A stretch of 20,000 bases of DNA from IMG/VR virus record IMGVR_UViG_3300024935_000002; one strand, written 5' to 3'. Within the stretch, counting starts at the first letter, position 1; the number at the start of each line of letters is the position of its first letter. Both the position numbers and the translations under genes were made by a program. Shown here in pieces: positions 626-11,638 of the stretch. Below the pieces are notes generated by a model that was not told where the DNA came from, did not search any database, and saw only the letters and a list, made by a program, of their open reading frames with translations. This DNA is from an uncultured virus (IMG/VR IMGVR_UViG_3300024935_000002) (taxonomy: Duplodnaviria > Heunggongvirae > Uroviricota > Caudoviricetes).

Positions 626-1275
626 CAGAATCCTCTCCGTGTCTGTTCGCGGCCCAAGAAGCTGTAGCCAAGGGCATCGGCAAAGTGACTGCGTGGTGTG
701 TCGGGGTACATGCGCTGAGTGCGTTCCACGCCCGTCCCGCGCTCGTATTCGGCGGCCAGAATTTCAAGCGCCAGCTTGGCCGTGCGCTCCGTGGCTTCCA
801 TGGCGGCGATCAGGGCGCGCTCACCTGCGATGCGCGACTCGATCACGTCCAGGTACACGTTGCGCTCGGTCTTGGGCTTCACGCGGTCGCGCTGGGCCTC
901 AAGGCGCCTGATGGACTGGCGTGCTATGGAGGTCTTCATAGCGGCACCGGCGCGGCCGGCCTGCAGCGCTTCGCGCACACCTTCCACAGGGTCATCCTTG
1001 TTGATGTCCACCGCCTCCGCGAACAGTTTGCGGATCAGCTCTCGGGCGCCTTCTTCCTCGGTTGTGGCCTGGCCGTCTTCCCCGGCGTCGTACCGTGCGC
1101 GCCGGGCGGGGTCGGTCAGAACGTCCTTGGCTGCGTTCAGGGCCTGCATGCGCTCATGGCTTCCGCCACGGTCTGGGTGTGCGTGGCGCGCGGCGCGGCG
1201 GTATGCCCGCTTGATGTCGTCCAAGCTGGCATCAGGTGCCACGCCCAGCGTGGCGTAGTGATCGGGGCGGCTCAT
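625..1275 (-). CDS. J-domain (DnaJ-like, class C) protein, 216 aa
   Basis: ATG at 1275 (ATGA overlap). DHYATLGV...IKRAYRRAARHAHPDRGG...LNAAKDVLTDPARRARYD is a complete J-domain with HPD; the C-terminus is helical. Confidence 0.9.
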   Translation of the reverse strand: MSRPDHYATLGVAPDASLDDIKRAYRRAARHAHPDRGGSHERMQALNAAKDVLTDPARRARYDAGEDGQATTEEEGARELIRKLFAEAVDINKDDPVEGVREALQAGRAGAAMKTSIARQSIRRLEAQRDRVKPKTERNVYLDVIESRIAGERALIAAMEATERTAKLALEILAAEYERGTGVERTQRMYPDTPRSHFADALGYSFLGREQTRRGF

Positions 1276-1862
1276 ACCCGCAGCAGGCTCGCAGCCAATC
1301 GGTCGAAGGCGGGGGAGGGTGTCTCGCCCAGCTTCTTCATGATCGTGGACAGCTCGCGCACGAGGATGGCCTGTGGGTCTTTGGGTTCGTGCCAGAGCGC
1401 TGGCTCCTGCACGTTCAGAGTGGTCATCACCAGCTTCATGTCTGCCTCGGTCACAGCGGTACCGACATGCTGCGCGGCCTGCAACGTCAGCCCTTCCAGG
1501 CTGGAGAACGCGGACATTTTTTGGCCTTTGAGCCATTCGCAGGCGCGGTAGAAGGCAACGGGATCGAGCGCGGCTTGGGCGGTGGTTTTGGTCATGGTGA
1601 TGGCGTCGGGTTTGGGGGTGGTTCGATTGGTGGTGACGGGCAATGGCAGGGCGTTTTCGCGGGCGAAGCGCTTCATGGCGCTCAGCTCGTTCAAGTCGCC
1701 GCGTGCGTCGCTGCGTGTGCCCATGCTGATGCTGAAAACGCGCTCCGCGCCGTTCTCTGCCAGGCACAGCAGCGTGGCCCGGTTGGCTTTGCGCTCGTAG
1801 CGCACGGGGGAAAGGCCGGCTTGCTCGGCCATGGTGTGGATGTCTCTCTGTCGTCGTTCCAT
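1272..1862 (-). CDS. Hypothetical protein, possible HicA-like N-terminal fold
   Basis: GGAG RBS before ATG 1862; TRSDARGDLNELSAMKR resembles the TPSDxRxxxNxxAxLRR motif of phage HicA-like proteins. Confidence 0.7.
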   Translation of the reverse strand: MERRQRDIHTMAEQAGLSPVRYERKANRATLLCLAENGAERVFSISMGTRSDARGDLNELSAMKRFARENALPLPVTTNRTTPKPDAITMTKTTAQAALDPVAFYRACEWLKGQKMSAFSSLEGLTLQAAQHVGTAVTEADMKLVMTTLNVQEPALWHEPKDPQAILVRELSTIMKKLGETPSPAFDRLAASLLRV

Positions 1863-1948
1863 GGGTTCTCCAGGCAATCAGGACAGAGCGCCGCGCGCCC
1901 TGTGCTCATGGCCCGGCCTGCCCGCGGGTGGCGGGCGGGGCTTGGGGT

Positions 1949-2755
1949 TTAGGTGTTGGGGGTGCCGTTGAGGATCGGCAGCTTGGTTTCGTCAGCGATC
2001 TGCTTGCGCAGCTCTGCCACGGCGGCCTCGATGGTCTTGTGCGGGCGGATCAGTTCGATCCACATGGTCAGGCGGCCACCGTCTTGAATGCGGTAGCGCA
2101 GGCGCACATTCAGCTGCCACTTGGCGCCGTTTTCAAACACCGGGATGCCGATGATGAATTCCTCGGGCACCTTGAGCTGACCCTTCTGCGCGGTGCCCTG
2201 AACGTCTTCCTCGTAGGTGAACTGGTGCGAGCCGTCCGACAGGCGGATGGCGCTGGCGAAGTTCACCTTCTTCTTGGCTTCCAGGGTGCGGCAGATTTCC
2301 AGCAGGGTGGCGCCGTCCGGGTTCACCACGTCCACCAGGTTGTTTTCGATGAACTGGGCCAGCTCCACCTGGGACTTGTGAACGCCGTTCATGCCGTTCC
2401 ATGCCTTCCACTCGGGCGACAGCGGCGCGTTGTAGCGCGCACGGTGGTCGCCCCAACCGGCTTCGGCGCCGATGTGGTTGAACACGGCGGTGAAGGTTGG
2501 CGGGTCGATGGTGCTGAACAGGCGCGTTCTGCTTTCCGCCTTTTGGTCGTTGACCACGGCGATGAAGCTCTCTGCGTCGTTCAGCGTGGTGGTGCCCTTT
2601 TTGCGGGTCGGCGCTGGGAGCAGGTGAGACAGCTCCTTGAATTCATAGCCCTCGGGCAGGATGAATCCGGGGGTGCCAGCAAACTGGTAGCCGCCCTGAT
2701 TGCACGCGGCCAGCTCGTCGCGGGCTTCGGTTTCAGTTTTCTCTTGTTGTCCCAT
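1949..2755 (-). CDS. yfdQ: YfdQ / DUF2303 family protein
   Basis: AGGAG RBS; motifs FTAVFNH...GWGDHRARY...SPEWKAW, SQVELAQFIENN, VPEEFIIGIPVFENG, RLRYRI. Confidence 0.85.
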   Translation of the reverse strand: MGQQEKTETEARDELAACNQGGYQFAGTPGFILPEGYEFKELSHLLPAPTRKKGTTTLNDAESFIAVVNDQKAESRTRLFSTIDPPTFTAVFNHIGAEAGWGDHRARYNAPLSPEWKAWNGMNGVHKSQVELAQFIENNLVDVVNPDGATLLEICRTLEAKKKVNFASAIRLSDGSHQFTYEEDVQGTAQKGQLKVPEEFIIGIPVFENGAKWQLNVRLRYRIQDGGRLTMWIELIRPHKTIEAAVAELRKQIADETKLPILNGTPNT

Positions 2756-2794
2756 GGGTTTTCTCCTGGTTGGAACGGGTTGATGGAATGGGGA

Positions 2795-3211
2795 TCAGTG
2801 GACGGCGCGCAGGGGTTGCGCGTCGTCGGCGGCGGGCGCCGTGCGCAGCTCGGTTCGAGCGGCGGCTTCCTGGTCGGCGGTGCGCAGGCCGTCCAGCGTG
2901 GTTTGGCGGGGGTTCTCGCGCTGCAGGTTGTTGTCAGGCGTGGCGAACATGAGGGTCTTGCCGCGCGTGGGCTGCGGTACTTTGGCCTTCACATCGGCCT
3001 CCAGCTCCACCTGGCCGGTGGTGCCGATGGGTTTCAGCTTGACTTTGATGGTCAGCTCACCAGCTTTGCCGGTCTGCGTGGCCGCGTGCACGATGTCCTG
3101 CAGCGCGTCGGTGGCTTCCTGCTCCAGGTTGCCGAAATCCAGCTGCTTGAAGAAGTCGGTGAACGGCTTGCGCTTGGTCTGCAGCGTGGGCGATTTGAGT
3201 GTGGTACTCAT
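2795..3211 (-). CDS. YfdP-like partner of YfdQ
   Basis: GGAG RBS; TGKAGELTIKVKLKP...KVPQPTRGKTLMFATPDNNLQRENPRQ is typical of the gene upstream of DUF2303. Confidence 0.75.
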   Translation of the reverse strand: MSTTLKSPTLQTKRKPFTDFFKQLDFGNLEQEATDALQDIVHAATQTGKAGELTIKVKLKPIGTTGQVELEADVKAKVPQPTRGKTLMFATPDNNLQRENPRQTTLDGLRTADQEAAARTELRTAPAADDAQPLRAVH

Positions 3212-3221
3212 GGGTCACTCC

Positions 3222-3249
3222 AAAAAAATGGCCCGCACAGTGGCGGGCC
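3222..3249 (-). terminator. Intrinsic terminator
   Basis: Minus strand GGCCCGC-6nt-GCGGGCC followed by A and T7. Confidence 0.75.
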
Positions 3250-3278
3250 GGTTGCGGGAATGGGGCGGCGGCGAGGGC

Positions 3279-3770
3279 TTACTTGCCTGCCAGGGTGGCG
3301 AAGGTGGACAGCGCGGCGAGAACGGTGTTCTCCACGTAGCGGATGCCGCTCATGGTGGCGGCGGCCTTGGGGAAGGTGTTCACCGGCTGCTCGCCCAACT
3401 TGCGCACGTTGATGATGAAAGCGGCTGCCAGCAGGCGGGTGTGGCCTTCCAGGCTGTCAGGGTCGAAGCCGGGCTTGGCCATGCCCACCAGCTCGGCCAC
3501 ATCGGGCGGGATCTCGACAGCGGCGCTGACGTGTCGGTGCTCGGTTTCTTCTGCCGCTTCAGCGGCGGCATTCACCTTCTGCTCGCCCGCCGTGGTCGGG
3601 TGGCAGGCGTCGCAGGTGGGGTCATCGCACTTGGCTGACAGCAGTTCCTTGAGGCCAGGGGGAAGACCATCGGCACCAGGGGCGGTGTCGGGAATGGAGG
3701 CGATGATGTCTGCCAGCAGCAGGGCTGCCAGCATGGCGCTCATGGGAGGGCGGGTAGAGGTTGCGGACAT
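3279..3770 (-). CDS. Hypothetical protein with CDDPTCDAC motif
   Basis: AAGGAG RBS before ATG 3770; single gene between two terminators. Confidence 0.75.
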   Translation of the reverse strand: MSATSTRPPMSAMLAALLLADIIASIPDTAPGADGLPPGLKELLSAKCDDPTCDACHPTTAGEQKVNAAAEAAEETEHRHVSAAVEIPPDVAELVGMAKPGFDPDSLEGHTRLLAAAFIINVRKLGEQPVNTFPKAAATMSGIRYVENTVLAALSTFATLAGK

Positions 3771-3792
3771 TGAGGTTCTCCTTGAGATAGGC

Positions 3793-3818
3793 AAAAAAAG
3801 ACCCGCAGAGGGCGGGCC
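3793..3818 (-). terminator. Intrinsic terminator
   Basis: Minus strand GGCCCGC-5nt-GCGGGTC followed by T7. Confidence 0.75.
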
Positions 3819-3833
3819 GGTGGGGTGGTGAGA

Positions 3834-4118
3834 TCAGTGTTTCTTGGCCCGGCTTGCGCGCTGGTCGTCGTAACCAGAGAACAAAGGGTTCAACTGCTGG
3901 CGCAGGTCTATCCGCTCATCCAGGGCTACACCAGCGCAAGCCATTGCAGAGCCAGCGGCATACAGCACGCCGTAGAGAGCGGTGAATACGCCATGTGCGT
4001 CAGAGCACTCGTTCATCAGGTCAATGACCTTGTCAGCCAGATCGCCTGCGCCGCCAGTCTTGATTTCTTTGGTAGCGCGGTGCACACCGGGCTTGTTCGG
4101 GTCAGTCGTGTCGCTCAT
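3834..4118 (-). CDS. Hypothetical protein, 94 aa
   Basis: AAGGAG RBS before ATG 4118. Confidence 0.7.
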   Translation of the reverse strand: MSDTTDPNKPGVHRATKEIKTGGAGDLADKVIDLMNECSDAHGVFTALYGVLYAAGSAMACAGVALDERIDLRQQLNPLFSGYDDQRASRAKKH

Positions 4119-4139
4119 GGATGCTCCTTGGGGCATGAG

Positions 4140-4162
4140 AAAGCCCGCACGCGGCGGGCTTT
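4140..4162 (-). terminator. Terminator-like hairpin
   Basis: AAAGCCCGC-5nt-GCGGGCTTT; the T tracts are short. Confidence 0.55.
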
Positions 4163-4210
4163 GGTGGTGTTGGGTGCTGGAGTGAAAGGTCTGGATCGGT
4201 CCCGGGATAG

Positions 4211-5320
4211 TTACGCGGCTGCCTTAGCCTGCACGGCCTCGATGTGGCGCACCATGGCGGCCAGGATCAGAGGGAAATCGGCCTCGCGGTACACGCCATG
4301 GGCGCCCACCTTGCCAGCAGGTTCAAAGCCCAGGATGCGCAAGCCCTCGGCGCTGGTGGTGATGGCGCCGCCCAGGCGCTCATTGATCGTGCCCAGCTTG
4401 AGGCCGGGAGCTGCTGCTTCCTGAACAGGCGCGGGCGCGGGGGCGTTGCGGGCGGCGGCCCAACTGCTCACGCGCTGGCGGGCCGGGGCGAGCGGGTCAA
4501 CTTGCTCGGCCGCAGGCTGCACTATCTGATCTGCGGTGGGCCCACCCCATGGCTCTACCTCGAACGCCGTGTAATCCGCGGCTGGTGCTGCTGCGGGTGG
4601 CTCCACCGGGGCAGGGGCTGGCGCGGGTGCCTGGGCGGCCAGCTTGGCGCGGGCTTCTTCAAGTTCTTTTTGCAGGCGGGCGTTTTCGATACGGGTCTTT
4701 TCGCTCTCGACCATGGCCAGCAGGCGCTGCACGGTGGCGAGGCATGCTGCCTCGGCTTCCTTGGCGAATTCCTCCCATTCCTCGCCAAAGGTCATTGCGC
4801 CCAGGGTGGCAATGGCGTTCTCGATCACTTCCACCGGCTGGCCCTCGGCCTGCTCCACGTAGGCCTTGAGCTGTTCGATGTTGGCGCGATGGGCGCCGAC
4901 ACGCTCGGCCTCCTCGCGGTCGCGCTCGGCCTTCTCATCGGCCTTGCGCTTTTCCTCGGCCTTGATCTGGGCATCAATGGCATCTTCGACCGGCTTCACG
5001 ATGGCGATCAGGCGCTCCACTTCGTCGCCCATCACCTTCTTGAGTTCGTTCACGTCCGCTTTCACGGAGGCCTCGGTGCGGGTCAGCATGCGCCGGCCGT
5101 TGTCGCGCAGATCCGCGCGGGCCGCCTTAGCGTCGGCCATGCCCTTTGAGTCGGCTACGCTGTAAACCACGTCGCGGTACTTCTCCGCCATGGCGGTCAG
5201 CCCTGCCTCGGTGTCCTTGAACTGGGCCAGCACCGTGTCCTTGATGGACATAGGCTTGGCCGCGATGTTGGTGGCCTGCTGTTGCGCCACGGCGGTGGTG
5301 GGGGTTGCGGTTTCAGTCAT
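4211..5320 (-). CDS. Coiled-coil recombination-module protein (DUF1351-like) with conserved phage C-terminal domain
   Basis: GAGGAG RBS; long charged helices, AP-rich linker, C-terminal LKLGTINERL...LGF...YREADFP...HI; directly downstream of the exonuclease. Confidence 0.75.
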   Translation of the reverse strand: MTETATPTTAVAQQQATNIAAKPMSIKDTVLAQFKDTEAGLTAMAEKYRDVVYSVADSKGMADAKAARADLRDNGRRMLTRTEASVKADVNELKKVMGDEVERLIAIVKPVEDAIDAQIKAEEKRKADEKAERDREEAERVGAHRANIEQLKAYVEQAEGQPVEVIENAIATLGAMTFGEEWEEFAKEAEAACLATVQRLLAMVESEKTRIENARLQKELEEARAKLAAQAPAPAPAPVEPPAAAPAADYTAFEVEPWGGPTADQIVQPAAEQVDPLAPARQRVSSWAAARNAPAPAPVQEAAAPGLKLGTINERLGGAITTSAEGLRILGFEPAGKVGAHGVYREADFPLILAAMVRHIEAVQAKAAA

Positions 5321-5329
5321 GAAATCTCC

Positions 5330-6064
5330 TCAGAAAAGGGTTGGCAGCAGCACGCGCGAGGCGGCTGTGCTGGAAAGTTGTGGGGGTGGGGTGACAACCT
5401 TGGCCTGAACGTCGATCACGTCCATGCGGTGTGTGTCGTCAAACTCGCGGATCAGCTGCTCGTAGTACGCGCTGGCAGCCTCACAGCGGTGGCGGATGAG
5501 CGATTCCTTCTGGAAGTCGCGTTCAATGACCCAGGTGGTCAATCGGTGCTGTGGCGGGATGTGGTCAACCAGGTGCTGATCCATGGGCTCGTTGCGGATC
5601 AGCTCGTGCGGGGTGTTCACCATCACGTAGTTCACTTCCCACTCGTCGGCATCCCAGAGCATCATGTAGCCGCGCATTTGCCAGTCGTAGAGCGGGTCGA
5701 TGGCGTCAACGGTCCATGCCGGGAAGGTCTTGAGGGACCATGGTGCTTTGATGTCGTGCCCACGGCGCCGGGGAGCGTCGAACAGGTCGCACTCGCCGGT
5801 GATCCACTCGTTGCGGCGGCGCTCGGTGTTCTTCGCCAGATTCAGGCCGCGCACCTTGTTCAGCAGGGCGATGGCGGTGTTCTCCACCGCAATGCCCTTG
5901 TCGGTTTCCTTGCTGGACACCTCAAACTCCACGCTGAACAGTTCTTCCTTGACCAGCTGGCGGATGTAGGAGCGCGCGCCCATGGACAGATCGCCCTCGG
6001 CCCTGGTGCGCGGCTCCGTCATCAGGTGACCCAGGCTGGAGCAGCGGAAACGAATGTCACGCAT
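5330..6064 (-). CDS. Phage exonuclease, PD-(D/E)XK / YqaJ-lambda exo-like
   Basis: RCSSL, KG..VE, WITGECDL...DIKAPW and YDWQMRGYM motifs; coupled to erf. Confidence 0.85.
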   Translation of the reverse strand: MRDIRFRCSSLGHLMTEPRTRAEGDLSMGARSYIRQLVKEELFSVEFEVSSKETDKGIAVENTAIALLNKVRGLNLAKNTERRRNEWITGECDLFDAPRRRGHDIKAPWSLKTFPAWTVDAIDPLYDWQMRGYMMLWDADEWEVNYVMVNTPHELIRNEPMDQHLVDHIPPQHRLTTWVIERDFQKESLIRHRCEAASAYYEQLIREFDDTHRMDVIDVQAKVVTPPPQLSSTAASRVLLPTLF

Positions 6065-6896
6065 GGGCACGTCGCGTCTGTTGCGGGTCAGCGGGCAGGC
6101 TGTTGCCGTGCTGGGTGATGATTTGCATCAGCGACTGGTAGCCCTCAAAGTCCTTCGCATCCTGGAAGGTCTTTCGGGCTTGGCGCATCACGTCGGTGAG
6201 CACTGCGCGCGTCTTGGTGGATTTGACCTTCTCGGTCCACTGCTCCAGCATCGTTTTTTCGGGCCCCTGGCCGTTGCCAGCGCTGTTCCCGTCGTCGTCG
6301 TCCTCGCCAACGGCCACGTTGAAGATGTCTTTGAGCAAGTAGCGTTTGGCGTAGGTCTTGCCTGAGCCCACGGCGTGCGTTTTGGTCATCACGTCGCCGC
6401 CCTTGGCTCCCTTGCCATCTGCAGGTATGTCGCACCGGTAAGTGCGGGTATGACCGGCGATGTGCGACACATAGCAAAGCACCCGGATATGACCGTCAGG
6501 CGCTCCATCGGCCTGGTCAAAGCTCAAGGCAAACCCATGGCTTGTGTAGATCGGCCGGATGTGGCGGTCCAGCTGTGCATAGGAGGCGTAAAGGCTGCGG
6601 GTCTGCGGGTTGACGGCATCTGCAGACACACGGCCCATGCGGCTTTGGGCTGCGGCCATGGCCGCGTTGAATTGCTGCTCAGCATCCCGAGCTGCGATGT
6701 GCTCGTGCATTCCGAGCAGCCTCTCCATCTTCTCTATGTTCACACTGGGGTCGTGTGCTGCGGAAATGATGGCCTGCGTCAGCGCCGAAGAATCAGAGCG
6801 GGTCACCTCGGTGGAGCGTTGCTGCACGGGGGTCGGATGCGTTTCAAGGGGCGTCAATGTCAGCCCATCGGCGGTTGCAGTTGCGGCATCGTTCAT
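6057..6896 (-). CDS. erf: ERF family single-strand annealing protein
   Basis: YASYAQLDRHIRPIYTSHGF and the ERF signature GSGKTYAKRYLL...FNVAVGEDDDDGN. Confidence 0.9.
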   Translation of the reverse strand: MNDAATATADGLTLTPLETHPTPVQQRSTEVTRSDSSALTQAIISAAHDPSVNIEKMERLLGMHEHIAARDAEQQFNAAMAAAQSRMGRVSADAVNPQTRSLYASYAQLDRHIRPIYTSHGFALSFDQADGAPDGHIRVLCYVSHIAGHTRTYRCDIPADGKGAKGGDVMTKTHAVGSGKTYAKRYLLKDIFNVAVGEDDDDGNSAGNGQGPEKTMLEQWTEKVKSTKTRAVLTDVMRQARKTFQDAKDFEGYQSLMQIITQHGNSLPADPQQTRRAHA

Positions 6897-6903
6897 GTGA
6901 ACC

Positions 6904-7002
6904 TCACGGAATGAATGGTTGGTGAACCCAGGCCATGTAGAAGGCCAGGGCAGCGGCGTGGAAAAAGAACAGGGCGGCGGCCAGGAGCAGGACTGTTTTC
7001 AT
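6904..7002 (-). CDS. 32-aa single-TM peptide
   Basis: ATGA overlap and GGAAG upstream; MKTVLLLAAALFFFHAAALAFYMAWVHQPFIP. Confidence 0.55.
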   Translation of the reverse strand: MKTVLLLAAALFFFHAAALAFYMAWVHQPFIP

Positions 7003-7220
7003 GGCTTCTTCCACTGCACCCAGGCGCCACGCAGATAGACAGCGCTGTAGGCGACGGATAGGGCCAGCAGGCCCCAGGCCGATGACTGCAGCGCAAAGGT
7101 GATCCAGAAAGGCTGCCCGCACAGGCCTACGATGGGCGCCCAGCGCCGGGCTCGCGCGTTGTTTCCCGTGGCCATGTAGAGGGCGGTCAGCCCGAAGAAT
7201 GCGAGGGCGAGCTGGATCAT
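6999..7220 (-). CDS. Small 3-TM membrane protein, possibly PnuC-like half-transporter
   Basis: 73 aa with three hydrophobic segments; GLCGQPFW...WG...Y...RG..W pattern. Confidence 0.65.
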   Translation of the reverse strand: MIQLALAFFGLTALYMATGNNARARRWAPIVGLCGQPFWITFALQSSAWGLLALSVAYSAVYLRGAWVQWKKP

Positions 7221-7402
7221 TTGGAGCTACCCCAGACATGCCGTGTGCACACCGGGCAGATGACGAACCAACGGGCGCCATCGCGTGGATCTGGTGACCA
7301 CTGCACCTCGGAGTGCTTGAATTCCAGCTCGCTCTTGCAGTGGCCGCAGGTTTCGCGGTGAATCTGCTCGTCTGGCAGCTTGCCTTGCTTGATGACCTTC
7401 AC
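7217..7402 (-). CDS. Zinc-ribbon protein, 61 aa
   Basis: GTGA overlap start; CGHC...CPVC. Confidence 0.75.
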   Translation of the reverse strand: MKVIKQGKLPDEQIHRETCGHCKSELEFKHSEVQWSPDPRDGARWFVICPVCTRHVWGSSK

Positions 7403-7983
7403 GGCAGCCTCCGAAACTCGACTACCCACACCCAGGGGTTGGCGTCCCAGCTGCCTGGACCGTTGATGGATTCCCACAGCGCGCGAAACATGGCGCGCGG
7501 GATCGTCTCGCCTGGGGCGCTGGTCATGGGGCAGCCGATGGCGGATGGCAGTGCGCCACAGCCCTCGTCAACGCAATCGGCGTCGCTGATGTCCTGCAGC
7601 CGCTCCACGCGCACGCGGGTGATTTCCAGGGTGATGCGGCTGACCCAGCGGGGCATGAACATGCTCGGGCGCAGCTTCCCGAATCCAGGCTGGTGCGGGG
7701 CGTCGGCCTCGTACCAAATGCGATGTGCCGGGGTCAGCTCGCGTGGTGGCAGGTGATCCACGGCAGAAACTGTGCGCCACGCCTCACGCACCCGTAAGCG
7801 GTCGCCGGGGACGCCGTAGGGGCACATTGCATTTTCGGGCAGCGCCACGAACTCAGGCGTGAAGCCATCGCGTTCAAGCCAGTCCAGGGCTGCGCCTTTC
7901 ACGATCCGCCGCGTCATCAACTTGATGTCGCTCAGCGTGGCGCGCACCATTGGCACTTTGAAGGGAAGGGGGCGCTCTTTCAT
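7399..7983 (-). CDS. ASCH/PUA-like phage protein
   Basis: MKERP..F...MVRA.L...K..TRR, CPYG.PGDRL.VRE, PSMFMPRW.SRITLEIT.VRVERLQDIS, W.ANPWVWVVEF. Confidence 0.85.
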   Translation of the reverse strand: MKERPLPFKVPMVRATLSDIKLMTRRIVKGAALDWLERDGFTPEFVALPENAMCPYGVPGDRLRVREAWRTVSAVDHLPPRELTPAHRIWYEADAPHQPGFGKLRPSMFMPRWVSRITLEITRVRVERLQDISDADCVDEGCGALPSAIGCPMTSAPGETIPRAMFRALWESINGPGSWDANPWVWVVEFRRLP

Positions 7984-8228
7984 GGCTGCACGCCCCGCGC
8001 CACCATTCCGGCTGCAACATCAGCGCGAGCGCGGCGCTCGGGCGTCCAAAGGTCGGGGCGCTCTTGCTGCGCCTGTGCCAGTGCATCCCGCAGGTTTGCA
8101 GCGTTGTCGGCCTCGGATTCCCAGTCTGCGGGGCCGTCCAGCAGGTAGCTGCCGCCCAAGAGATACGAGGTCAACAGAACTGCTGCGGCGATACAGAAAA
8201 AAGCCTTGAGGTTTTCAAAGGGGGGCAT
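7980..8228 (-). CDS. Hypothetical protein with N-terminal TM anchor
   Basis: AAGGAG RBS; overlaps both neighbours; hydrophobic N-terminal segment. Confidence 0.7.
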   Translation of the reverse strand: MPPFENLKAFFCIAAAVLLTSYLLGGSYLLDGPADWESEADNAANLRDALAQAQQERPDLWTPERRARADVAAGMVARGVQP

Positions 8229-8407
8229 CAGGGTTCTCCTTGTTCAAGTGCGTCCGGGTCCAGATCCGCGCCAATGGCCGCAGCCTCTCTCTGGCGCTGG
8301 GTGGCGGCTTCATTGCGGCGCTTGGTTTCAGCCTGTGCTTCCTGGGATGCGGCAAGGGCATCGCGGCTGGTGCTGGTGAAGTGCGGGGAGTTGATGGGGT
8401 CGATCAC
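8228..8407 (-). CDS. Hypothetical protein, 59 aa
   Basis: GTGA overlap start at 8407; fills the operon exactly. Confidence 0.6.
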   Translation of the reverse strand: MIDPINSPHFTSTSRDALAASQEAQAETKRRNEAATQRQREAAAIGADLDPDALEQGEP

Positions 8408-8643
8408 TTCTCGCTCCCAAAGCCGCGCACGGTGATTTGCAGGTTCTCGCCGTATCTCTGCACCGAGAAATCCTTTTCGATCAGGGCGATACACATGGCT
8501 CCAACCCGCTCGCGGATGGCCTTCTCTGCTTGCGCTACTGCCTGTTGAATGGCGGGCTCTGCCGCGCGCTGCATTTCGGCCGACATTTCCGCTTTCAGGC
8601 GTGCCAGTGCGTTGTCGGCGTGGATGAATGTCTTCGTGCTCAC
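8404..8643 (-). CDS. Hypothetical protein, 79 aa
   Basis: GTGA overlap start at 8643 (MSTKTFIHADNAL...). Confidence 0.65.
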   Translation of the reverse strand: MSTKTFIHADNALARLKAEMSAEMQRAAEPAIQQAVAQAEKAIRERVGAMCIALIEKDFSVQRYGENLQITVRGFGSEK

Positions 8644-8837
8644 GACCACACCCCCATGTGCGCGTTGTGCTGGACCTGATCGACCAGCGCGCGGTGGTAG
8701 CGGGGATCGCTGGCCTCCAGTGCCGCCACATCGGCCCAGGCCTTGCTGCGCAGGCGCTGCAGCTCCTGCTCGGAAATCGGCGGCGGTGCGCCAGGGATGC
8801 GCAGCAGCGGCTGCACAGTGGTGTGTACGTTTTGCAT
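8640..8837 (-). CDS. Hypothetical protein, 65 aa
   Basis: AGGAGG RBS before ATG 8837. Confidence 0.7.
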   Translation of the reverse strand: MQNVHTTVQPLLRIPGAPPPISEQELQRLRSKAWADVAALEASDPRYHRALVDQVQHNAHMGVWS

Positions 8838-8853
8838 TGCGCCTCCTGGGCGT

Positions 8854-8877
8854 AAAAAAGCCCGCGTGGTGCGGGCT
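8854..8877 (-). terminator. Intrinsic terminator (tL-like)
   Basis: Minus strand AGCCCGC-ACCAC-GCGGGCT running into a T6 tract. Confidence 0.8.
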
Positions 8878-8883
8878 GGGGAG

Positions 8884-8957
8884 AAAAAACCGCTGCCCTT
8901 GCGGGGCCTGCCGGGGGAACACAAAGGAGGGAGGGAGGAGACACCCCCGGCGCGGTT
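8884..8957 (-). ncRNA. Candidate structured RNA with CU-rich anti-SD loop
   Basis: AACCGC/GCGGTT closing stem plus U tract; inner GCCGGGGG/CCCCCGGC stem with loop containing CUCCUCCCUCCCUCCUUU; GCAA tetraloop hairpin. Confidence 0.5.
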
Positions 8958-9014
8958 GGAAAGGTTCGGGACGTGTCCCACCAATGCCCCGCACGCGAGG
9001 CATGGATGGTTGTG

Positions 9015-9125
9015 TCAGGTGCGGCGGCGGCGCTCCACCCACCGGCCAAGGCGATAGGCCGCGTAGAAGATCGCAGCCGTCCAGGCGGCCAGCCCACCGC
9101 CTATCAGCGTGGTGATGAGCGCCAT
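9015..9125 (-). CDS. 36-aa single-TM peptide with basic tail
   Basis: Not in the ORF track; ATG 3 nt after the lipoprotein stop: MALITTLIGGGLAAWTAAIFYAAYRLGRWVERRRRT. Confidence 0.6.
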   Translation of the reverse strand: MALITTLIGGGLAAWTAAIFYAAYRLGRWVERRRRT

Positions 9126-9128
9126 TGG

Positions 9129-9548
9129 CTACTTGCCGATGCGGGGGACGGGGAAGGGCGCTTGCGAATTGCAGGTTCCGTTTTGCTTCGCAAGGTTGGT
9201 GTTCTTGTCGAAGTCTTCCTTGCGGTAGCAGCCCACGCTTTGCGAGAACGTGGAGCACATCAGCACCGTCTTGTCCACCTGCTTGCCTTCGACACGCATG
9301 ATGGACAGCTCTGCCCAGCCGTCGCCCTGGGGGCAGTTGGGCGATTGCATGTCGTCGCTGCGGCTCACGATGGTGAAGTCCGAGGTGAAACGCGGGTTCT
9401 GCGCCTTGTAGAGCGCCGCGTTGAACTCGGCATTGGCCTTGGCCGTCTGCCGGGCTTCTTCCAGCCGGTCGAACGGCACTTCTTTGTCGCCGCACGCGGC
9501 CATGGCCATGGCTGCGACAGCTGCCAAGGCGATCAGGGAGGTCTTCAT
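9129..9548 (-). CDS. Lipoprotein, 139 aa
   Basis: AAGGA RBS; MKTSLIALAAVAAMAMAA|CGD lipobox-type signal; four further Cys residues. Confidence 0.85.
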   Translation of the reverse strand: MKTSLIALAAVAAMAMAACGDKEVPFDRLEEARQTAKANAEFNAALYKAQNPRFTSDFTIVSRSDDMQSPNCPQGDGWAELSIMRVEGKQVDKTVLMCSTFSQSVGCYRKEDFDKNTNLAKQNGTCNSQAPFPVPRIGK

Positions 9549-9559
9549 ATGGTTCCTTG

Positions 9560-10091
9560 TCAAACGCCGCTGGGGCAGGCGGCAACAAACCCCGCGCATG
9601 ACCTGCCCGCAGGGCATGCACTGGTTCTGTTGTCAAAGGGAGGAATGGGTGGGCTACTCGCCGGGGGATTCACGCACCGTCCAAAGTTTGTGAAGTGGCT
9701 TTTGCCCGTATGGATTGATGGCGGCGCCATCACGACGGTGGGCTGGTGCTCTCTTTCCGCTTGATCCTGCGGCGAGTCACATTGCTCCAATCCACCTGCG
9801 TGATGGCCCTCTTGCGAGGGCATCCCGGCATCTGGTAGCCGTGTCGCTGCATCAACATGCAGCACCGTTTCCGTGGTGTCAGCCCCTTGCGGGGTTCCCA
9901 TCCCGTTTACCGCGCTTCGGCGGACTGGGAACCGCCTCGGATCTCGGCGGCGCATAGCTTCGGCCCATGCCCGAAGGTGCTCTTTCGCCGGACGAAGGCC
10001 CCGCAGGTGGGGCCAGCAACATCGGCGTGCATTTTTTGAAAGAGCCTCCGGTGTGCGCCGATCCACCCACCTGAGCCGTTGTTGACGGCGT
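9560..10091 (-). ncRNA. Long, densely structured PL leader (candidate cis-regulatory/antitermination RNA)
   Basis: About 540 nt with no credible ORF and RBS, more than ten hairpins including two GCAA tetraloops. Confidence 0.5.
10031..10045 (-). promoter_or_regulatory. boxA-like antitermination element (nutL)
   Basis: GCTCTTTCAAAAAAT about 45 nt after the PL start; close to boxA consensus GCTCTTTAACAA. Confidence 0.65.
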
Positions 10092-10097
10092 AGGCGA

Positions 10098-10126
10098 AAT
10101 ATAACAAGTGTTGATTGTGCGGTCAA
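10098..10126 (-). promoter_or_regulatory. PL sigma70 promoter
   Basis: Minus strand TTGACC-N17-TATATT, overlapped by two operators. Confidence 0.85.
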
Positions 10127-10147
10127 CAAGTGTTTTTAACATTCGTT
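10103..10147. promoter_or_regulatory. OL operators (3 sites)
   Basis: AACAAGTGTT at 10103 and 10125, AACATTCGTT at 10138; the same palindrome occurs at OR. Confidence 0.85.
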
Positions 10148-10187
10148 GATTTCATTGAATTTCGGGAAACTATCGGCTCAGACGGGC

Positions 10188-10213
10188 AACAAAAAACCGC
10201 CTCACGGGCGGTT
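10188..10213 (-). terminator. Terminator of the cI-HNH transcript
   Basis: Minus strand AACCGCC-5nt-GGCGGTT followed by TTTTGTT. Confidence 0.8.
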
Positions 10214-10247
10214 GTGTTGTGGCAACGAGTTGTGGGCCTCTGGGCGC

Positions 10248-10541
10248 CTATCGGCGGTCTTTTCGGCACTCTCTCACATCTACCAAGGTCTTAAAGCGGT
10301 GGTCCTCTCTCGTGATCCACTGCATGTTGTTGGGCCTGTCAGCACCTCCAGCACATAGCGCAATCACATGATCCACATGCCACCCCGGACAGGCGCCGCG
10401 CGTGCGGCCAGTGGCTGGGCACGGGTGCTCGGCGCGGAACGCGCGCACCTGGGAACGGTCGCGCTCTGTTCTTGCGCCAGCCATCTGTGGCCATGCGCAA
10501 AGCACAGCGAACAGCATGAGTGTCGGTTTTGCCAGGCTCAA
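10248..10541 (-). CDS. Small HNH-type nuclease with predicted Sec signal peptide
   Basis: TTG start overlapping the cI stop (alternative ATG 10517); MSLAKPTLMLFAVLCAWPQMAGA| then CPATG...CPGWHVDHVIALCAGGADRPNNMQWITREDHRFKT. Confidence 0.75.
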   Translation of the reverse strand: MSLAKPTLMLFAVLCAWPQMAGARTERDRSQVRAFRAEHPCPATGRTRGACPGWHVDHVIALCAGGADRPNNMQWITREDHRFKTLVDVRECRKDRR

Positions 10542-11296
10542 TACTGTTCGCTGCGCCACACCGTCAGTACCTTGCCCAAAATCTCGAAATGCGGATTCTT
10601 GGGTGACATAGGGTAAGGGGGGTAGTCCGGGTTCTTGGAAATGATATTCAGCATCACGCCGTCCCCATGAGGGTCTGGCACACGCTGGATCATTTTGATA
10701 AACCCTTCGTCACCGACGCGGAAGAAATATACGCCCTCGTGGGTCACGGTCTTCACGCCAATGTCCACCAGCAGCGGGTCGCCGGGGTTGAACATGGGCC
10801 GCATGGATGGCCCAAAGCCAGTAACGATGCAGAGGTTGCGAACGCCAGTATGGGATGGAACATTCAGGCGCAGCCAATCGTGAGACACGCGCCAACTCTT
10901 GATGATGCCTGGCTGGTCGTCCAGCATCAGGCGCCCGGTGGTGTCCATGCCGCCACCCGTATCGTACTCGGCGATGACCAAATCAGGAGGGGCGCCCGGT
11001 GCTCCAGACGGAGCCTCGTGAGGTGCTGGTGCTGGAGCAAGGATGTTGGTGGCCACTCCTTGTGAATCCAGCGCGGCAGCGGGGATCATGCTGCCCAACT
11101 CTGAGCGCAGCCATTCATGGCTGATCTTGTCCGCAGGGAAGCCGCGAATCAGATCCTCCTTGTAGTTTGTCCTGTCACTGCCGCGCGTAGTTATCGCGCT
11201 GATCGTCGGCATAGCAACGGAGGTGCGGCCCGCAAGGTCAGAAGGGCCCCAACCCAAGTGTTTTAAGGCTGCATCCAGCCGCTCTCCGAATTTCAT
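10538..11296 (-). CDS. cI: Phage repressor (HTH plus S24 peptidase)
   Basis: N-terminal HTH (FGERL...SDLA...PTISAI); S24 motifs GPSMRPMF.PGD.LLVD and FIKMIQR; divergent from cro. Confidence 0.93.
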   Translation of the reverse strand: MKFGERLDAALKHLGWGPSDLAGRTSVAMPTISAITTRGSDRTNYKEDLIRGFPADKISHEWLRSELGSMIPAAALDSQGVATNILAPAPAPHEAPSGAPGAPPDLVIAEYDTGGGMDTTGRLMLDDQPGIIKSWRVSHDWLRLNVPSHTGVRNLCIVTGFGPSMRPMFNPGDPLLVDIGVKTVTHEGVYFFRVGDEGFIKMIQRVPDPHGDGVMLNIISKNPDYPPYPMSPKNPHFEILGKVLTVWRSEQY

Positions 11297-11309: not shown

Positions 11310-11386
11310 AACAAATGTTGAAAACAAGGGTTGATGCCTAAATCAACAAGTGTTATTCTCAAGGGATGAGTAACACAACACCTGTT
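11310..11386. promoter_or_regulatory. OR operators (3 intergenic sites plus 1 inside cro)
   Basis: AACAAATGTT 11310, AACAAGGGTT 11323, AACAAGTGTT 11345, AACACCTGTT 11377. Confidence 0.85.
11331..11359 (+). promoter_or_regulatory. PR sigma70 promoter
   Basis: TTGATG-N17-TATTCT; the predicted start coincides with the cro ATG. Confidence 0.75.
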
Positions 11387-11638
11387 GATGCATTGATCGA
11401 AGCGGTGAAGCTCGCTGGCGGTCAATCTGCGCTGGCCGAAAAGCTGTCAGCACTGGCGCCCAGCCCGGTTTCCCAGGCTCGGGTTTGGAACTGGGTCAAC
11501 CGCGATCAGCGAGCGCCAGCAGAAATGTGCCCGTTCATTGAGCGCCTGACCGGAGTTCAGTGCGAGCGCTTGCACCCTGATGTCGATTGGGCGTACTTGC
11601 GCAACGGAGCCGCCACACAAGCGAAGGAGGCCGCGTAA
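11366..11638 (+). CDS. cro: Cro/YdaS-family HTH regulator
   Basis: AGGQSALAEKL...SQARVWNWVNR...PAEMCPFIERLTGV..E.LHPDVDW. Confidence 0.9.
   Translation: MSNTTPVDALIEAVKLAGGQSALAEKLSALAPSPVSQARVWNWVNRDQRAPAEMCPFIERLTGVQCERLHPDVDWAYLRNGAATQAKEAA

What the first reader, a model, noticed from the sequence alone, without database searches (positions are those of the whole stretch)
9560..10091. About 540-nt hairpin-packed PL leader: candidate N-independent antitermination RNA or large ncRNA
Seen on the minus strand: GGCCCC/GGGGCC, CTTCGG/CCGAAG, GTTCCCA/TGGGAAC, CCCC-GCAA-GGGG, GCTGCAT/ATGCAGC, CCCTC-GCAA-GAGGG, TGATGGC/GCCATCA and TGGATTG/CAATCCA stems almost back to back, plus boxA. There is no N-like gene, yet several terminators lie downstream. 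Known: HK022 put RNA antiterminates without a phage protein. Inference: an RNA-based readthrough device or a processed sRNA cluster.
Basis: partly seen in the sequence, partly recalled or inferred. Interest (0 to 1): 0.7.

Follow-up and report, generated by a model that had tools for sequence, protein, structure and literature searches.

The report
Conserved boxA-linked phage PL leader RNA
The start of this temperate phage's leftward early transcript carries a host-type boxA signal joined to a conserved, pseudoknotted RNA of about 210 bases that is shared by many phages of Burkholderiales bacteria, is listed in Rfam only as a 74-base piece on the opposite strand, and most likely helps RNA polymerase read through terminators.

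Summary
All eight stems, a boxA-like motif, a strong promoter and three downstream terminators are present, and the leader folds better than shuffles (z -4.85). The promoter is a true repressor-controlled PL: its operator motif recurs only in the cI-cro region.

Only part of the 540-nt leader is conserved. Window 10053-9843 (minus strand) is a 211-position RNA found once per locus in 75 of 75 related loci. In 49 of them, 97% of cells pair, 20 of 49 pairs show compensatory changes, and both pseudoknots covary.

Rfam's Burkholderiales-2 (RF02917, function unknown) is the reverse complement of its 5' third. G-U versus A-C counts (161:13), the boxA, the promoter and the gene order all favour the minus strand.

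Of 115 unique loci, 71 have boxA (0-2 mismatches), usually 6-7 nt before the first helix. Host rrn leaders share the boxA-spacer-GCCGAU layout.

No N or Q family, no conserved downstream gene and no second copy were found.

Best reading (about 50%): a cis-acting, Nus-assisted antitermination or anti-Rho leader. This would be a new variant beside lambda nut and HK022 put. Function is untested; attenuator, stable early RNA and N-dependent site remain rivals.

The parts
10098..10126 (-). PL-like sigma-70 promoter, TTGACC-17-TATATT with TG before the -10 hexamer
   Evidence: It is the only promoter-like site in window 1-10200, and the operator motif overlaps both hexamers.
10103..10134 (.). Two operator-like palindromes AACAAGTGTT (10103-10112 and 10125-10134), over the -10 and -35 hexamers. 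The same motif occurs at 11310-11319, 11345-11354 and 11377-11386 in the cI-cro region.
   Evidence: 5 matches to AACANNTGTT in the 20-kb window, all at these two places. Expected 0.15; 0 of 200 shuffles reach 5.
10034..10045 (-). boxA-like element GCUCUUUCAAAA, 7 nt upstream of helix P1
   Evidence: 2 mismatches to GCTCTTTAACAA; 71 of 115 unique related loci have 0-2 mismatches at this position, and the spacer to P1 is 6-7 nt in 63 of those 71.
9843..10053 (-). Conserved structured RNA: full-length match to covariance model R1 (boxA region plus helices P1-P8)
   Evidence: 127.4 bits, E 1.7e-39, model positions 1-211 of 211. Covariation.
9987..10026 (-). P1 (10026-10020 with 9994-9987, one bulged C) enclosing hairpin P2 (10014-10009 with 10002-9997)
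   Evidence: P2 shows compensatory changes in 3 of 6 pairs (A1) and 5 of 6 (A2). P1 is invariant, because the search pattern fixed it.
9952..9980 (-). P3: outer 9980-9978 with 9954-9952, inner 9976-9971 with 9963-9958. P1 to P3 together are the reverse complement of the Rfam RF02917 match (9952-10026, plus strand).
   Evidence: The inner helix has compensatory changes in 5 of 6 pairs.
9931..9951 (-). P4 hairpin (GCCGCC 9951-9946 with GGCGGU 9936-9931), loop GAGAUCCGA
   Evidence: Sequence and the R1 alignment. The family helix covaries in A2 (3 of 4 pairs). In 49 class A relatives the P4 loop forms pseudoknot PK1. In the window an equivalent pairing (UCC with GGA) is only possible, not shown.
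9901..9930 (-). P5: outer UCCC 9930-9927 with GGGA 9904-9901, inner CCGC 9923-9920 with GCGG 9913-9910.
   Evidence: R1 alignment. Covariation (helices 6 and 7, 3 of 4 pairs each)., I3.
9846..9894 (-). 3' domain of the window's subtype: CCCC-GCAA-GGGG (9894-9883), CACC/GGUG hairpin (9878-9863), and P8 GCUGCAU/AUGCAGC (9863-9846). In most relatives it is replaced by P6 plus pseudoknot PK2 plus a P8 with the invariant loop UUGGAAU.
   Evidence: Relatives: (P6, PK2 and P8 covary). Only L060 shares this subtype (92.7% identity over 10071-9826).
9549..9842 (-). Lineage-specific rest of the leader. It holds further hairpins (for example CCCUC-GCAA-GAGGG at 9821-9806) and a C-rich stretch at about 9657-9620.
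   Evidence: single-sequence folding only; no broad conservation; 9881-9828 is shared with about 10 loci, and 9631-9100 with L063.
9129..9548 (-). First gene of the leftward operon: 139 aa, N-terminus MKTSLIALAAVAAMAMAACGDKE (lipoprotein-like signal). It is not N-like.
   Evidence: No Pfam or PHROG match. The lipoprotein reading is an inference from the sequence.
8859..8877 (-). Intrinsic terminator-like hairpin followed by T5, inside the leftward operon
   Evidence: One RNA-library contig bridges it (X12 record 4, 8722-8942).
3800..3818 (-). Intrinsic terminator-like hairpin followed by T7, in the gap between co-directional ORFs 3834-4136 and 3279-3794
3230..3249 (-). Intrinsic terminator-like hairpin (7 G-C pairs) followed by T7, in the gap between ORFs 3279-3794 and 2795-3211
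10195..11296 (-). Upstream context on the same strand: cI-like S24 repressor (10538-11296), HNH endonuclease (10248-10559) and their terminator (10213-10195)

Best explanation
The element is the nutL/putL-equivalent of a group of N-less, lambda-like temperate phages of Burkholderiales.

Proposed mechanism, step by step:
1. On induction or infection, the cI-controlled PL fires.
2. About 45 nt into the transcript a host-type boxA emerges.
3. Six or seven nucleotides later comes a roughly 185-nt multi-helix RNA (P1-P8; two pseudoknots in most members).
4. NusB-NusE bind boxA and, with NusA and NusG (and possibly SuhB), tether the 5' RNA to the elongating polymerase.
5. The folded domain supplies what boxB plus N supply in lambda, or what put RNA supplies in HK022: a stable modification of the elongation complex.
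6. The modified complex carries transcription through the long untranslated leader (Rho) and through the intrinsic terminators spaced along the about 9-kb leftward operon.

Shown here: the promoter and its operators, the boxA, the conserved covarying fold, the RNA strand, the single copy per genome, the fixed position, and the terminators.

Inferred: Nus binding, contact with the polymerase, and readthrough.
For: 1. Position. The element sits directly behind a promoter that carries the same operator motif as the cI-cro region. It is on the same strand as the repressor gene, as in lambda. A repressor-like gene lies upstream on the same strand in 32 related loci, and the same layout is annotated in Bordetella avium phages.

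2. boxA. Of 115 unique loci, 21 match GCTCTTTAACAA exactly, 22 have 1 mismatch and 28 have 2. The spacer to P1 is 6-7 nt in 63 of these 71.

3. Likeness to host rrn leaders. In 12 of 13 host genomes examined, the rrn leader has a boxA-like site (rrn-type boxA), then 6-7 nt, then GCCGAU. This is the same layout as boxA, 6-7 nt, GCCGAUGUUGCU in the phage RNA. Where the hosts' rrn boxA deviates, some phage copies deviate in a similar way: Ottowia rrn GATCATTAAAAA against its prophage GACCATTCAAAA, and GATCCTTAAAAA in L061/L068 against the Delftia rrn.

4. A selected RNA fold.
- A1 (49 sequences): 97.2% of cells paired; 20 of 49 pairs with changes on both sides; covariation score 0.271 against 0.126 shuffled (0 of 500 shuffles as high); slid controls 33-40% paired; both pseudoknots covary.
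- A2 (75 sequences): 98.5% paired; 25 of 42 pairs with changes on both sides.

5. Strand. G-U against A-C is 161:13 in A1 and 223:14 in A2, or 84:14 among pairs that are mostly Watson-Crick.

6. Need for readthrough. One promoter-like site serves about 10 kb of co-directional genes, with three strong intergenic terminator hairpins. No N or Q family matched among 36 ORF translations. No conserved gene lies directly downstream; at most 11 loci share one.

7. RNA-library contigs cover the element in 3 sediment runs and in a wastewater run. This shows presence only.
Against: - No functional test was possible, so readthrough, Nus binding and polymerase contact are all inferred.
- There is one copy per genome: none behind PR in the window, and none elsewhere in 6 of 6 records searched whole. 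Lambda and HK022 each have L and R sites.
- 30 of 115 loci have 4 or more mismatches to boxA at the expected place, so boxA is not obligatory.
- According to passages of PMC5725501, Nus factors alone mainly counter Rho or aid RNA folding, and in suhB they even promote termination. The presence of boxA therefore does not by itself predict antitermination.
- A 210-nt fold with two pseudoknots is far more elaborate than any known antiterminator RNA and would equally suit a sensor.
- The total count of terminator-like sites does not exceed the shuffles (11 against 10.4).
- The search pattern fixed the P1 sequence, so P1 has no covariation support. In one copy found without the pattern (L147), one P1 pair is broken.
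Confidence: 0.5

Rival explanations
1. Attenuator or riboswitch-like sensor. The pseudoknotted domain binds a metabolite, ion or host factor and decides whether PL transcripts stop (by Rho, or at a terminator where one exists) before the first gene, gating the lytic or recombination genes. boxA and the Nus factors serve only to chaperone co-transcriptional folding.
For: - The fold is complex, highly conserved and pseudoknotted, with invariant loops, which is typical of ligand-binding RNAs.
- 14 of 105 loci have a terminator-like hairpin 213-241 nt after the start of P1, just behind P8.
- The window has a C-rich unstructured stretch before the first gene.
- Passages of PMC5725501 say that Nus factors act mainly in RNA folding at rrn.
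- In three RNA libraries a separate short contig covers just the element. This is a weak hint only; the tool warns that contigs cannot rank parts of a transcript.
Against: - There is no conserved expression platform. Only 28 of 105 loci have any terminator-like site within +150 to +520, no more than on the opposite strand (24).
- The region 3' of P8 is variable.
- No alternative, mutually exclusive pairing is conserved. The candidate P0 helix failed its test (median z 0.09; 9 of 111 loci below -2).
- No riboswitch family matched.
Confidence: 0.17
2. N-dependent nut-like site. The element is bound by a small, fast-evolving phage protein (an N analogue encoded elsewhere or too divergent to recognise). 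The P1/P2 hairpin takes the place of boxB.
For: - boxA is followed after 6-7 nt by a hairpin, which recalls the boxA-spacer-boxB order of lambda (recalled knowledge).
- N proteins are short and diverse, so profile searches can miss them.
- Many early ORFs in the window have no family.
Against: - No N family was hit in the 36 ORF translations scanned.
- No gene is conserved directly downstream across loci; at most 11 loci share one.
- No second (nutR-like) site exists.
- The conserved RNA is more than ten times the size of boxB, and the P2 loops are 6-8 nt, not a GNRA-like pentaloop.
Confidence: 0.15
3. Stable early non-coding RNA. The 5' leader is cut or terminated to give a discrete RNA of about 280-330 nt that acts in trans (for example as a protein sponge, or on host or competing-phage targets). 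Its place at PL serves only to time its synthesis.
For: - RNA-library contigs of 166-326 nt cover just the element (X8 9785-10066, X12 9879-10044, X14 9748-10073). They are separate from the contigs over the downstream genes. Presence only.
- A subset of loci has a terminator right behind it.
- The compact tertiary fold should resist nucleases (inference).
Against: - The element is always at the very 5' end of the early-left operon, always with the operon continuing behind it, and mostly joined to boxA, which is a cis-acting co-transcriptional signal.
- Most loci have no terminator after it.
- It has no match to known phage sRNA families. C4 and its targets are found separately in the Bordetella phage locus.
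Confidence: 0.13
4. The Rfam reading. The functional RNA is the 74-nt plus-strand motif (RF02917), a cis-regulator or antisense RNA transcribed towards the repressor gene.
For: - The RF02917 match is on the plus strand at 91.1 bits, against a gathering score of 67.9.
- In one Bordetella phage, two small annotated genes lie 'downstream' in that orientation.
Against: - G-U against A-C is 161:13 in favour of the minus strand overall. Within the motif's own helices P2 and P3 it is 24:4 (counted from the per-pair list) and 39:4.
- Conservation and covariation extend about 140 nt beyond the motif, only as a minus-strand fold with pseudoknots.
- boxA, the promoter and the operators are on the minus strand.
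- In the window, no plus-strand gene follows the motif.
Confidence: 0.03

Closest known systems
Rfam RF02917, Burkholderiales-2 RNA (Weinberg et al. 2017 motif set; typed 'Cis-reg', no function assigned)
   Same: The same locus and sequence family. The window scores 91.1 bits against a gathering score of 67.9 at 9952-10026. Relatives score 82-100 bits.
   Different: - The Rfam model is 74 nt, on the opposite strand, and covers only P1-P3.
- Here the selected fold is about 211 nt on the other strand, with five more helices, two pseudoknots and a preceding boxA.
- The main text of PMC5737381 does not mention the motif (0 occurrences of 'Burkholderiales'). Its supplement could not be read, so what its authors said about strand or context is unknown to me.
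Lambda nutL (boxA - boxB, N protein, NusA/B/E/G)
   Same: - It lies just downstream of a repressor-controlled PL, on the same strand as cI.
- A consensus-type boxA is followed after a short spacer by a hairpin.
- Terminators lie in the operon behind it.
   Different: - No N family and no conserved first gene were found.
- There is no nutR-like second site.
- In place of a 15-nt boxB stands a pseudoknotted domain of about 185 nt.
- The features of lambda are recalled knowledge, apart from what PMC5725501 states.
HK022 putL/putR antiterminator RNA
   Same: Both are cis-acting structured RNAs immediately downstream of PL in lambdoid phages without N. HK022 put works without phage protein (PMC9378689, passages read).
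   Different: - put is about 70-74 nt, with two stem-loops and a short triplex. It comes in two copies (L and R), has no boxA and needs no Nus factors.
- This element is 211 nt with 8 helices and 2 pseudoknots, comes in a single copy, and mostly carries boxA.
- Sequence or structure homology to put could not be tested, because no put model was at hand. Rfam scans returned no family other than RF02917 above chance level in the element.
rrn operon leader antiterminator (boxB-boxA-boxC; NusA/B/E/G, SuhB, S4)
   Same: Both have a host-type boxA and the same boxA, 6-7 nt, GCCGAU layout, seen in 12 of 13 Burkholderiales host rrn leaders examined. Both stand at the head of a long untranslated RNA.
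   Different: - The phage element is phage-borne, under a repressor-controlled promoter.
- What follows GCCGAU is a dedicated pseudoknotted fold, not boxC and the 16S processing stem.
- The rrn complex is not known to overcome intrinsic terminators efficiently (recalled knowledge). Passages of PMC5725501 stress its role in folding.

Membership tests
Rfam RF02917 Burkholderiales-2 | Covariance-model score at or above the gathering threshold (67.9 bits) | tested here: met
   91.1 bits, E 1.9e-14, model positions 1-74 of 74, at window 9952-10026 on the plus strand.
Rfam RF02917 Burkholderiales-2 | The modelled strand is the strand on which the RNA structure is selected | tested here: not met
   G-U against A-C is 161:13 in favour of the opposite (minus) strand, and 24:4 in the motif's own variable helices. 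On A2 the counts are 223:14 and 39:4. boxA and the promoter are on the minus strand.
Lambda-type nut site | boxA (CGCTCTTTAACAA-like) on the early transcript | tested here: met
   Window: GCTCTTTCAAAA at 10045-10034, 2 mismatches. Family: 71 of 115 loci with 0-2 mismatches.
Lambda-type nut site | boxB: a short hairpin with a GNRA-like pentaloop a few nt after boxA (recalled definition) | tested here: not met
   After a 6-7 nt spacer comes P1, enclosing P2 with 6-8 nt loops, as part of a 185-nt fold.
Lambda-type nut site | An N-family protein encoded downstream of nutL | tested here: not met
   No N or Q family among 36 ORF translations (Pfam and PHROGs). The first gene is lipoprotein-like. No conserved downstream ORF across loci. 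Profile searches have limited sensitivity for short, divergent proteins.
Lambda-type nut site | A second site (nutR) on the PR transcript | tested here: not met
   There is no plus-strand boxA-like match in the window. One R1 match in the whole 68.6-kb phage and one significant match in each of 5 other whole records.
HK022 put RNA | About 70-nt RNA with two stem-loops (PMC9378689) | tested here: not met
   211 model positions, 42 nested pairs in 9 helices, plus 2 pseudoknots.
HK022 put RNA | Located just downstream of PL, with a second copy behind PR | tested here: inconclusive
   The PL position is met. The second copy is not met.
HK022 put RNA | Acts by binding the RNA polymerase beta' zinc-binding domain, without protein factors | not testable with these tools
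   This needs in vitro transcription or structural work.
rrn leader antiterminator | boxA that matches the host's own rrn boxA, with its downstream context | tested here: inconclusive
   12 of 13 host rrn leaders have boxA, 6-7 nt, GCCGAU, like the phage RNA. Prophage and host boxA agree exactly in 1 of 12 comparable pairs (Pigmentiphaga) and differ by 1-4 letters in the others. The shared deviations (Ottowia) are anecdotal.
rrn leader antiterminator | Precedes an rRNA gene | tested here: not met
   It precedes phage early genes.
Transcriptional riboswitch | A conserved aptamer followed by a conserved expression platform (terminator and antiterminator alternatives) | tested here: not met
   A conserved fold is present, but a terminator right behind it occurs in only 14 of 105 loci. 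No conserved alternative pairing was found. No riboswitch family was hit.
C4 / CI-type phage immunity RNAs | A match to Rfam C4 (RF01695) with target sites upstream of an antirepressor operon | tested here: not met
   No such match in the window. In Bordetella phage locus L002, C4 and c4-a1b1 occur separately, about 2.4 kb downstream of the element.

The most novel reading that the evidence does not exclude
This is a third kind of RNA-based processive antitermination. A large pseudoknotted leader RNA is fused to a module that mimics the host rrn leader (boxA, 6-7 nt, GCCGAU). It assembles host Nus factors on RNA polymerase and, without any phage protein, makes the complex resistant to both Rho and intrinsic terminators over about 9 kb. 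In effect it would be a put-like function built on the rrn antitermination machinery, and it would explain how N-less lambda-like phages of Burkholderiales express their early-left operon.
Probability: 0.3. Interest if true: 0.85.

Novelty: new variant of a known kind. Interest (0 to 1): 0.68.

Why it matters
How lambda-like phages without an N protein get through their early terminators is solved only for HK022 (put RNA). This work gives three things.

1. A well-defined, covariation-supported RNA with coordinates, a consensus fold and a covariance model. It sits exactly where nutL or putL would be, in at least 115 distinct loci of phages and prophages. The hosts are mainly Comamonadaceae and Alcaligenaceae.

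2. A correction to a public RNA family. RF02917 appears to be modelled on the wrong strand and to hold only about a third of the element.

3. A concrete, testable link to the host Nus/rrn machinery: boxA and the GCCGAU spacing shared with host rrn leaders.

If the element works as proposed, it would show a new way of building a terminator-resistant polymerase. It would also provide a portable readthrough module for beta-proteobacteria. Earlier notes from this scan describe boxA-plus-structured-leader arrangements in N-less prophages of E. coli and Pseudomonas (unchecked AI notes), so the strategy may be general.

Tried and rejected
- **P0 helix.** A long-range helix between the 5' end of the transcript and the P3/P4 region is seen in the window (I12, I14, I22) and in the Bordetella phages. 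It is not general: RNAduplex against shuffles gave a median z of 0.09, with 9 of 111 loci below -2.
- **Terminator behind the element as a general feature.** 28 of 105 loci have one within +150 to +520, against 24 on the opposite strand. Only 14 cluster at +213 to +241.
- **Conserved partner gene downstream.** None was found. The two largest ORF clusters are artefacts of translating the conserved RNA itself.
- **Second copy.** None in the window's phage, within +/-1.5 kb in 75 loci, or in 5 other whole records. One Delftia genome has two copies at separate chromosomal places about 0.84 Mb apart.
- **Order-wide survey with R1.** 0 of 150 other sampled Burkholderiales genomes matched. Only 15 candidates per genome were scored, with strict filters, so this shows only that the element was not found in those searched.
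- **Other Rfam families.** Only chance-level hits in the leader and nothing further in four relatives. No tRNA- or tmRNA-like call.
- **RNAalifold on the mixed 75-sequence MAFFT alignment.** It recovered only P1-P3 on either strand. Structure beyond that needed subclass alignment and manual helices.
- **Technical failures.** mafft-qinsi is not usable on the script machine. A crude GC3 gene caller gave unusable context calls.
- **Literature.** A full-text search for 'Burkholderiales-2' found 0 papers. 'boxA + antitermination + prophage + Burkholderia' found 1 unrelated paper (listing only). The supplement of PMC5737381 could not be read.
- **RNA-library contigs.** Stretches without cover (10128-10863; nearly all of 9579-9784 in X8 and X12) are not evidence of anything. 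Contig depths (543 against 20 in X8; 521 against 30 in X12; 61 against 4 in X14, element against next gene) are reported by the tool as unfit for ranking parts of a transcript, and k-mers shared with related phages could inflate them. I use them only as a weak hint under two rivals. The upstream ends of the contigs (10044-10073) do not coincide exactly, and strand cannot be read from contigs.
- **Arg-rich motif scan for an N-like protein.** It is dominated by spurious high-GC frames. The only real gene flagged is the DnaJ-domain ORF 625-1767.
- **Earlier notes.** The search of earlier findings by place and by sequence gave nothing.
Full report
**Setting.** The window is part of a 68.6-kb IMG/VR virus record with direct terminal repeats. 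It has the layout of a lambda-like immunity region:
- a cI-like S24 repressor (10538-11296, minus strand);
- a divergent Cro/YdaS-like gene (11366-11638, plus strand);
- replication genes to the right;
- a leftward operon with an Erf annealing protein (6057-6896), an exonuclease (5330-6070) and many unknown genes.

Behind cI lies an HNH gene (10248-10559), then a terminator (10213-10195). Next comes the only sigma-70 promoter-like site found in window 1-10200: TTGACC-17-TATATT at 10126-10098 on the minus strand.

The palindrome AACANNTGTT occurs five times in the 20 kb. Two copies lie over the -10 and -35 hexamers of this promoter and three lie in the cI-cro region. The expected count is 0.15, and 0 of 200 shuffles reach 5. 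The promoter is therefore a repressor-controlled PL, and the finding is its leader. The first plausible gene (lipoprotein-like, ATG at 9548) begins about 540 nt downstream.

**The observation.** The minus-strand RNA folds 4.85 standard deviations better than dinucleotide shuffles; the plus strand gives 2.56. Three strong terminator-like hairpins sit in intergenic gaps of the leftward operon: 8877-8859, 3818-3800 and 3249-3230. The overall number of such sites does not exceed chance.

**A database hit on the other strand.** Rfam finds one family, RF02917 Burkholderiales-2 (typed Cis-reg). It matches at 9952-10026 on the plus strand with 91.1 bits. The main text of the paper that introduced the motif set does not discuss it, its supplement could not be read, and no paper in the library names it.

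**Relatives.** BLAST against phage records finds only nine Bordetella avium phages. They match window 10048-9903 in the same context: repressor, accessory genes, a long gap holding the match, then early genes on the same strand. A pattern from the conserved core found 82 IMG/VR loci and 41 species-representative genomes. The named genomes are almost all Burkholderiales:
- Comamonadaceae: Comamonas, Delftia, Acidovorax, Ottowia and others;
- Alcaligenaceae: Bordetella, Achromobacter, Alcaligenes, Kerstersia and others;
- Burkholderiaceae: Pandoraea and Burkholderia.

A few oddly labelled MAGs also matched.

**Extent and structure.** Oriented as the PL transcript, the loci share far more than the 74-nt motif. 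The order is:
- a boxA;
- a 6-7 nt spacer;
- P1 enclosing hairpin P2;
- a two-part P3;
- hairpin P4;
- a two-part P5;
- a short P6;
- hairpin P8, with the invariant loop UUGGAAU.

There are two pseudoknots. PK1 joins the P4 loop to the bases just before an invariant GUGAGG. PK2 joins the P6 loop to a triplet downstream.

On a plain MAFFT alignment of 49 loci (A1), the structure I proposed pairs 97.2% of 2299 cells. Of its 49 pairs, 20 change on both sides. The covariation score is 0.271, against 0.126 in shuffles (0 of 500 as high). Sliding the partners by 1-3 columns drops pairing to 33-40%. PK1 covaries in 3 of 4 pairs and PK2 in 2 of 3.

A covariance model of the nested part (R1; 211 positions, 42 pairs) finds exactly one full-length match in each of 75 unique sources, always on the leader strand. 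On that model-fitted alignment, 98.5% of cells pair and 25 of 42 pairs show double changes.

The window's copy is 10053-9843: 127.4 bits, E 1.7e-39, all 211 positions. Its 5' two-thirds (boxA to P5) is canonical. Its 3' domain is a variant: CCCC-GCAA-GGGG, a CACC/GGUG hairpin and GCUGCAU/AUGCAGC. Only L060 shares this variant. Several such 3' subtypes exist, and PK1 is not evident in all of them. P1 has no covariation support, because my search pattern fixed its sequence. In a copy found by the model alone (L147), one P1 pair is broken.

**Strand.** In A1, pairs that depart from Watson-Crick are G-U 161 times and A-C 13 times (113:13 without P1). Within the helices of the Rfam motif itself the ratio is 24:4. 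In A2 the counts are 223:14, 84:14 among pairs that are mostly Watson-Crick, and 39:4 in P2 plus P3 (this alignment is fitted to the model). The boxA, the promoter, the operators and the gene order all agree. The selected RNA is therefore the minus strand of the window, and RF02917 describes the reverse complement of its 5' third.

**Not a protein.** Element lengths fall in all three classes modulo 3 (27, 29 and 19 of 75), and no single frame is kept open across the sequences. Open frames of this length are common in such GC-rich DNA.

**boxA and the host.** Of 115 unique loci, 21 have GCTCTTTAACAA exactly within the 45 nt before P1. A further 22 have one mismatch, 28 have two and 14 have three. 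The spacer to P1 is 6-7 nt in 63 of the 71 with at most two mismatches. Thirty loci have four or more mismatches.

I read the rrn leaders of 13 host genomes that carry the element. All have a boxA-like site about 146-219 nt before the 16S start, and 12 of 13 continue, after 6-7 nt, with GCCGAU(AAGYGUGGGC). The phage RNA has the same arrangement: boxA, 6-7 nt, GCCGAU(GUUGCU).

Comamonadaceae rrn boxA sites deviate from the enterobacterial consensus (GATCCTTAAAAA, GATCATTAAAAA). An exact GCTCTTTAACAA was absent from one Delftia genome and occurred once in one Ottowia genome. Some phage copies deviate in the same direction: the Ottowia prophage has GACCATTCAAAA, and L061/L068 have GATCCTTAAAAA. 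This is suggestive, not a statistical result.

**What is not there.**
- No N or Q family among 36 ORF translations.
- No gene conserved directly downstream; at most 11 loci share one.
- No boxA-like site on the PR side of the window.
- No second copy of the RNA in 6 of 6 records searched whole.
- A terminator right behind P8 in only 14 of 105 loci.
- No conserved alternative pairing.
- No tRNA-like feature.

In 150 other Burkholderiales genomes sampled evenly, the model found nothing, under strict filters. By the exact pattern, 41 loci in 38 of 185,579 species-representative genomes carry the element. It is a sporadic, phage-borne element.

**Transcript data.** Metatranscriptome assemblies hold short contigs that cover just the element. 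They come from sediment (three studies, possibly one campaign, in the habitat the record may come from) and from wastewater. The sediment contigs are 9785-10066, 9879-10044 and 9748-10073, each 100% identical to the window. They are separate from the contigs over the downstream genes, and one contig bridges the 8877-8859 terminator. The tool warns that contigs show presence only, not strand, ends or level. I therefore take this as showing that the element is found in RNA libraries, and nothing firmer.

**Interpretation.** Position, boxA, the rrn-like spacing, the missing N and the terminators ahead make a cis-acting antitermination or anti-Rho device the most economical reading (about 0.5). 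Passages of PMC9378689 show that HK022 put is much smaller, comes in two copies and lacks boxA, so the element is not a put family member. Nor is it a lambda nut site, since boxB, N and nutR are not met.

Passages of PMC5725501 caution that Nus factors at boxA may mainly chaperone RNA folding and can even favour termination. This keeps three rivals alive:
- a sensor or attenuator;
- a stable early RNA;
- a site for an unrecognised phage protein.

Earlier notes of this scan report boxA plus undescribed structured leaders in N-less prophages of E. coli and Pseudomonas. They are unchecked AI notes on other genomes and do not support this case, but they suggest a recurring design.

**Verdict.** The finding is a real, conserved, structured leader RNA. 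It is partly known as a mis-oriented 74-nt Rfam motif of unknown function. Here it is defined as a boxA-linked RNA of about 211 nt, with pseudoknots, at PL of Burkholderiales temperate phages. Its function is inferred, not shown.

Noticed in passing
window 10103-10134 and 11310-11386: The operator-like palindrome AACANNTGTT occurs only at PL (2 copies) and in the cI-cro region (3 copies). It is a candidate binding site for the S24 repressor encoded at 10538-11296.
   Followed up: partly
window 10248-10559 (-): A small HNH endonuclease gene overlaps the end of the repressor gene and is followed by its own terminator (10213-10195). It sits where lambda carries rexAB, so it may be a lysogen-expressed accessory gene.
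   Followed up: no
window 625-1767 (-): A 380-aa protein with a DnaJ domain lies at the far end of the leftward operon. It carries an arginine-rich stretch (RRTRRLERAERHEALRPR) at residues 20-37.
   Followed up: no
L002:5492-5692 (Bordetella phage vB_BaM-IFTN3): Rfam C4 antisense RNA (53.4 bits) and its a1b1 target motif (44.7 bits, just under its gathering score of 46.7) lie upstream of the Rha-family antirepressor gene, about 2.4 kb downstream of the leader RNA in the same orientation. This is a separate P1-like immI module in the same phages.
   Followed up: no
L063 versus window 9100-10083: The leader is mosaic. L063 shares the lipoprotein gene and 80 nt upstream of it at 96.6% identity, and the 5' part of the RNA at 90%. 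It carries the common (class A) 3' domain in place of the window's subtype, so recombination seems to swap domains within the RNA.
   Followed up: partly
host rrn leaders L129-L146: In Burkholderiales rrn leaders the boxA is followed by a strongly conserved ACAGCCGAUAAG(U/C)GUGGGC. In Comamonadaceae the boxA itself departs from the enterobacterial consensus (for example GAUCCUUAAAAA).
   Followed up: partly
window 9620-9657 (-): A C-rich, G-poor, apparently unstructured stretch (GUAGCCCACCCAUUCCUCCCUUUGACAACAGAACCAG) lies in the untranslated leader before the first gene. It is a possible Rho loading site.
   Followed up: no
G001 (Delftia sp.) 3434984-3435166 and 4276367-4276565; also L107/L112, L099/L120, L105/L121: Some host genomes carry two copies of the element at distant places, presumably in two prophages. 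One Delftia copy escaped the exact pattern and was found only by the covariance model.
   Followed up: partly
alignment A1, columns 212-229 (P8): The P8 loop UUGGAAU is invariant across 49 sequences apart from UUGAAAU in L044 and L054, while its stem covaries. From memory it resembles a T-loop, which would suggest a tertiary contact. This was not tested.
   Followed up: no
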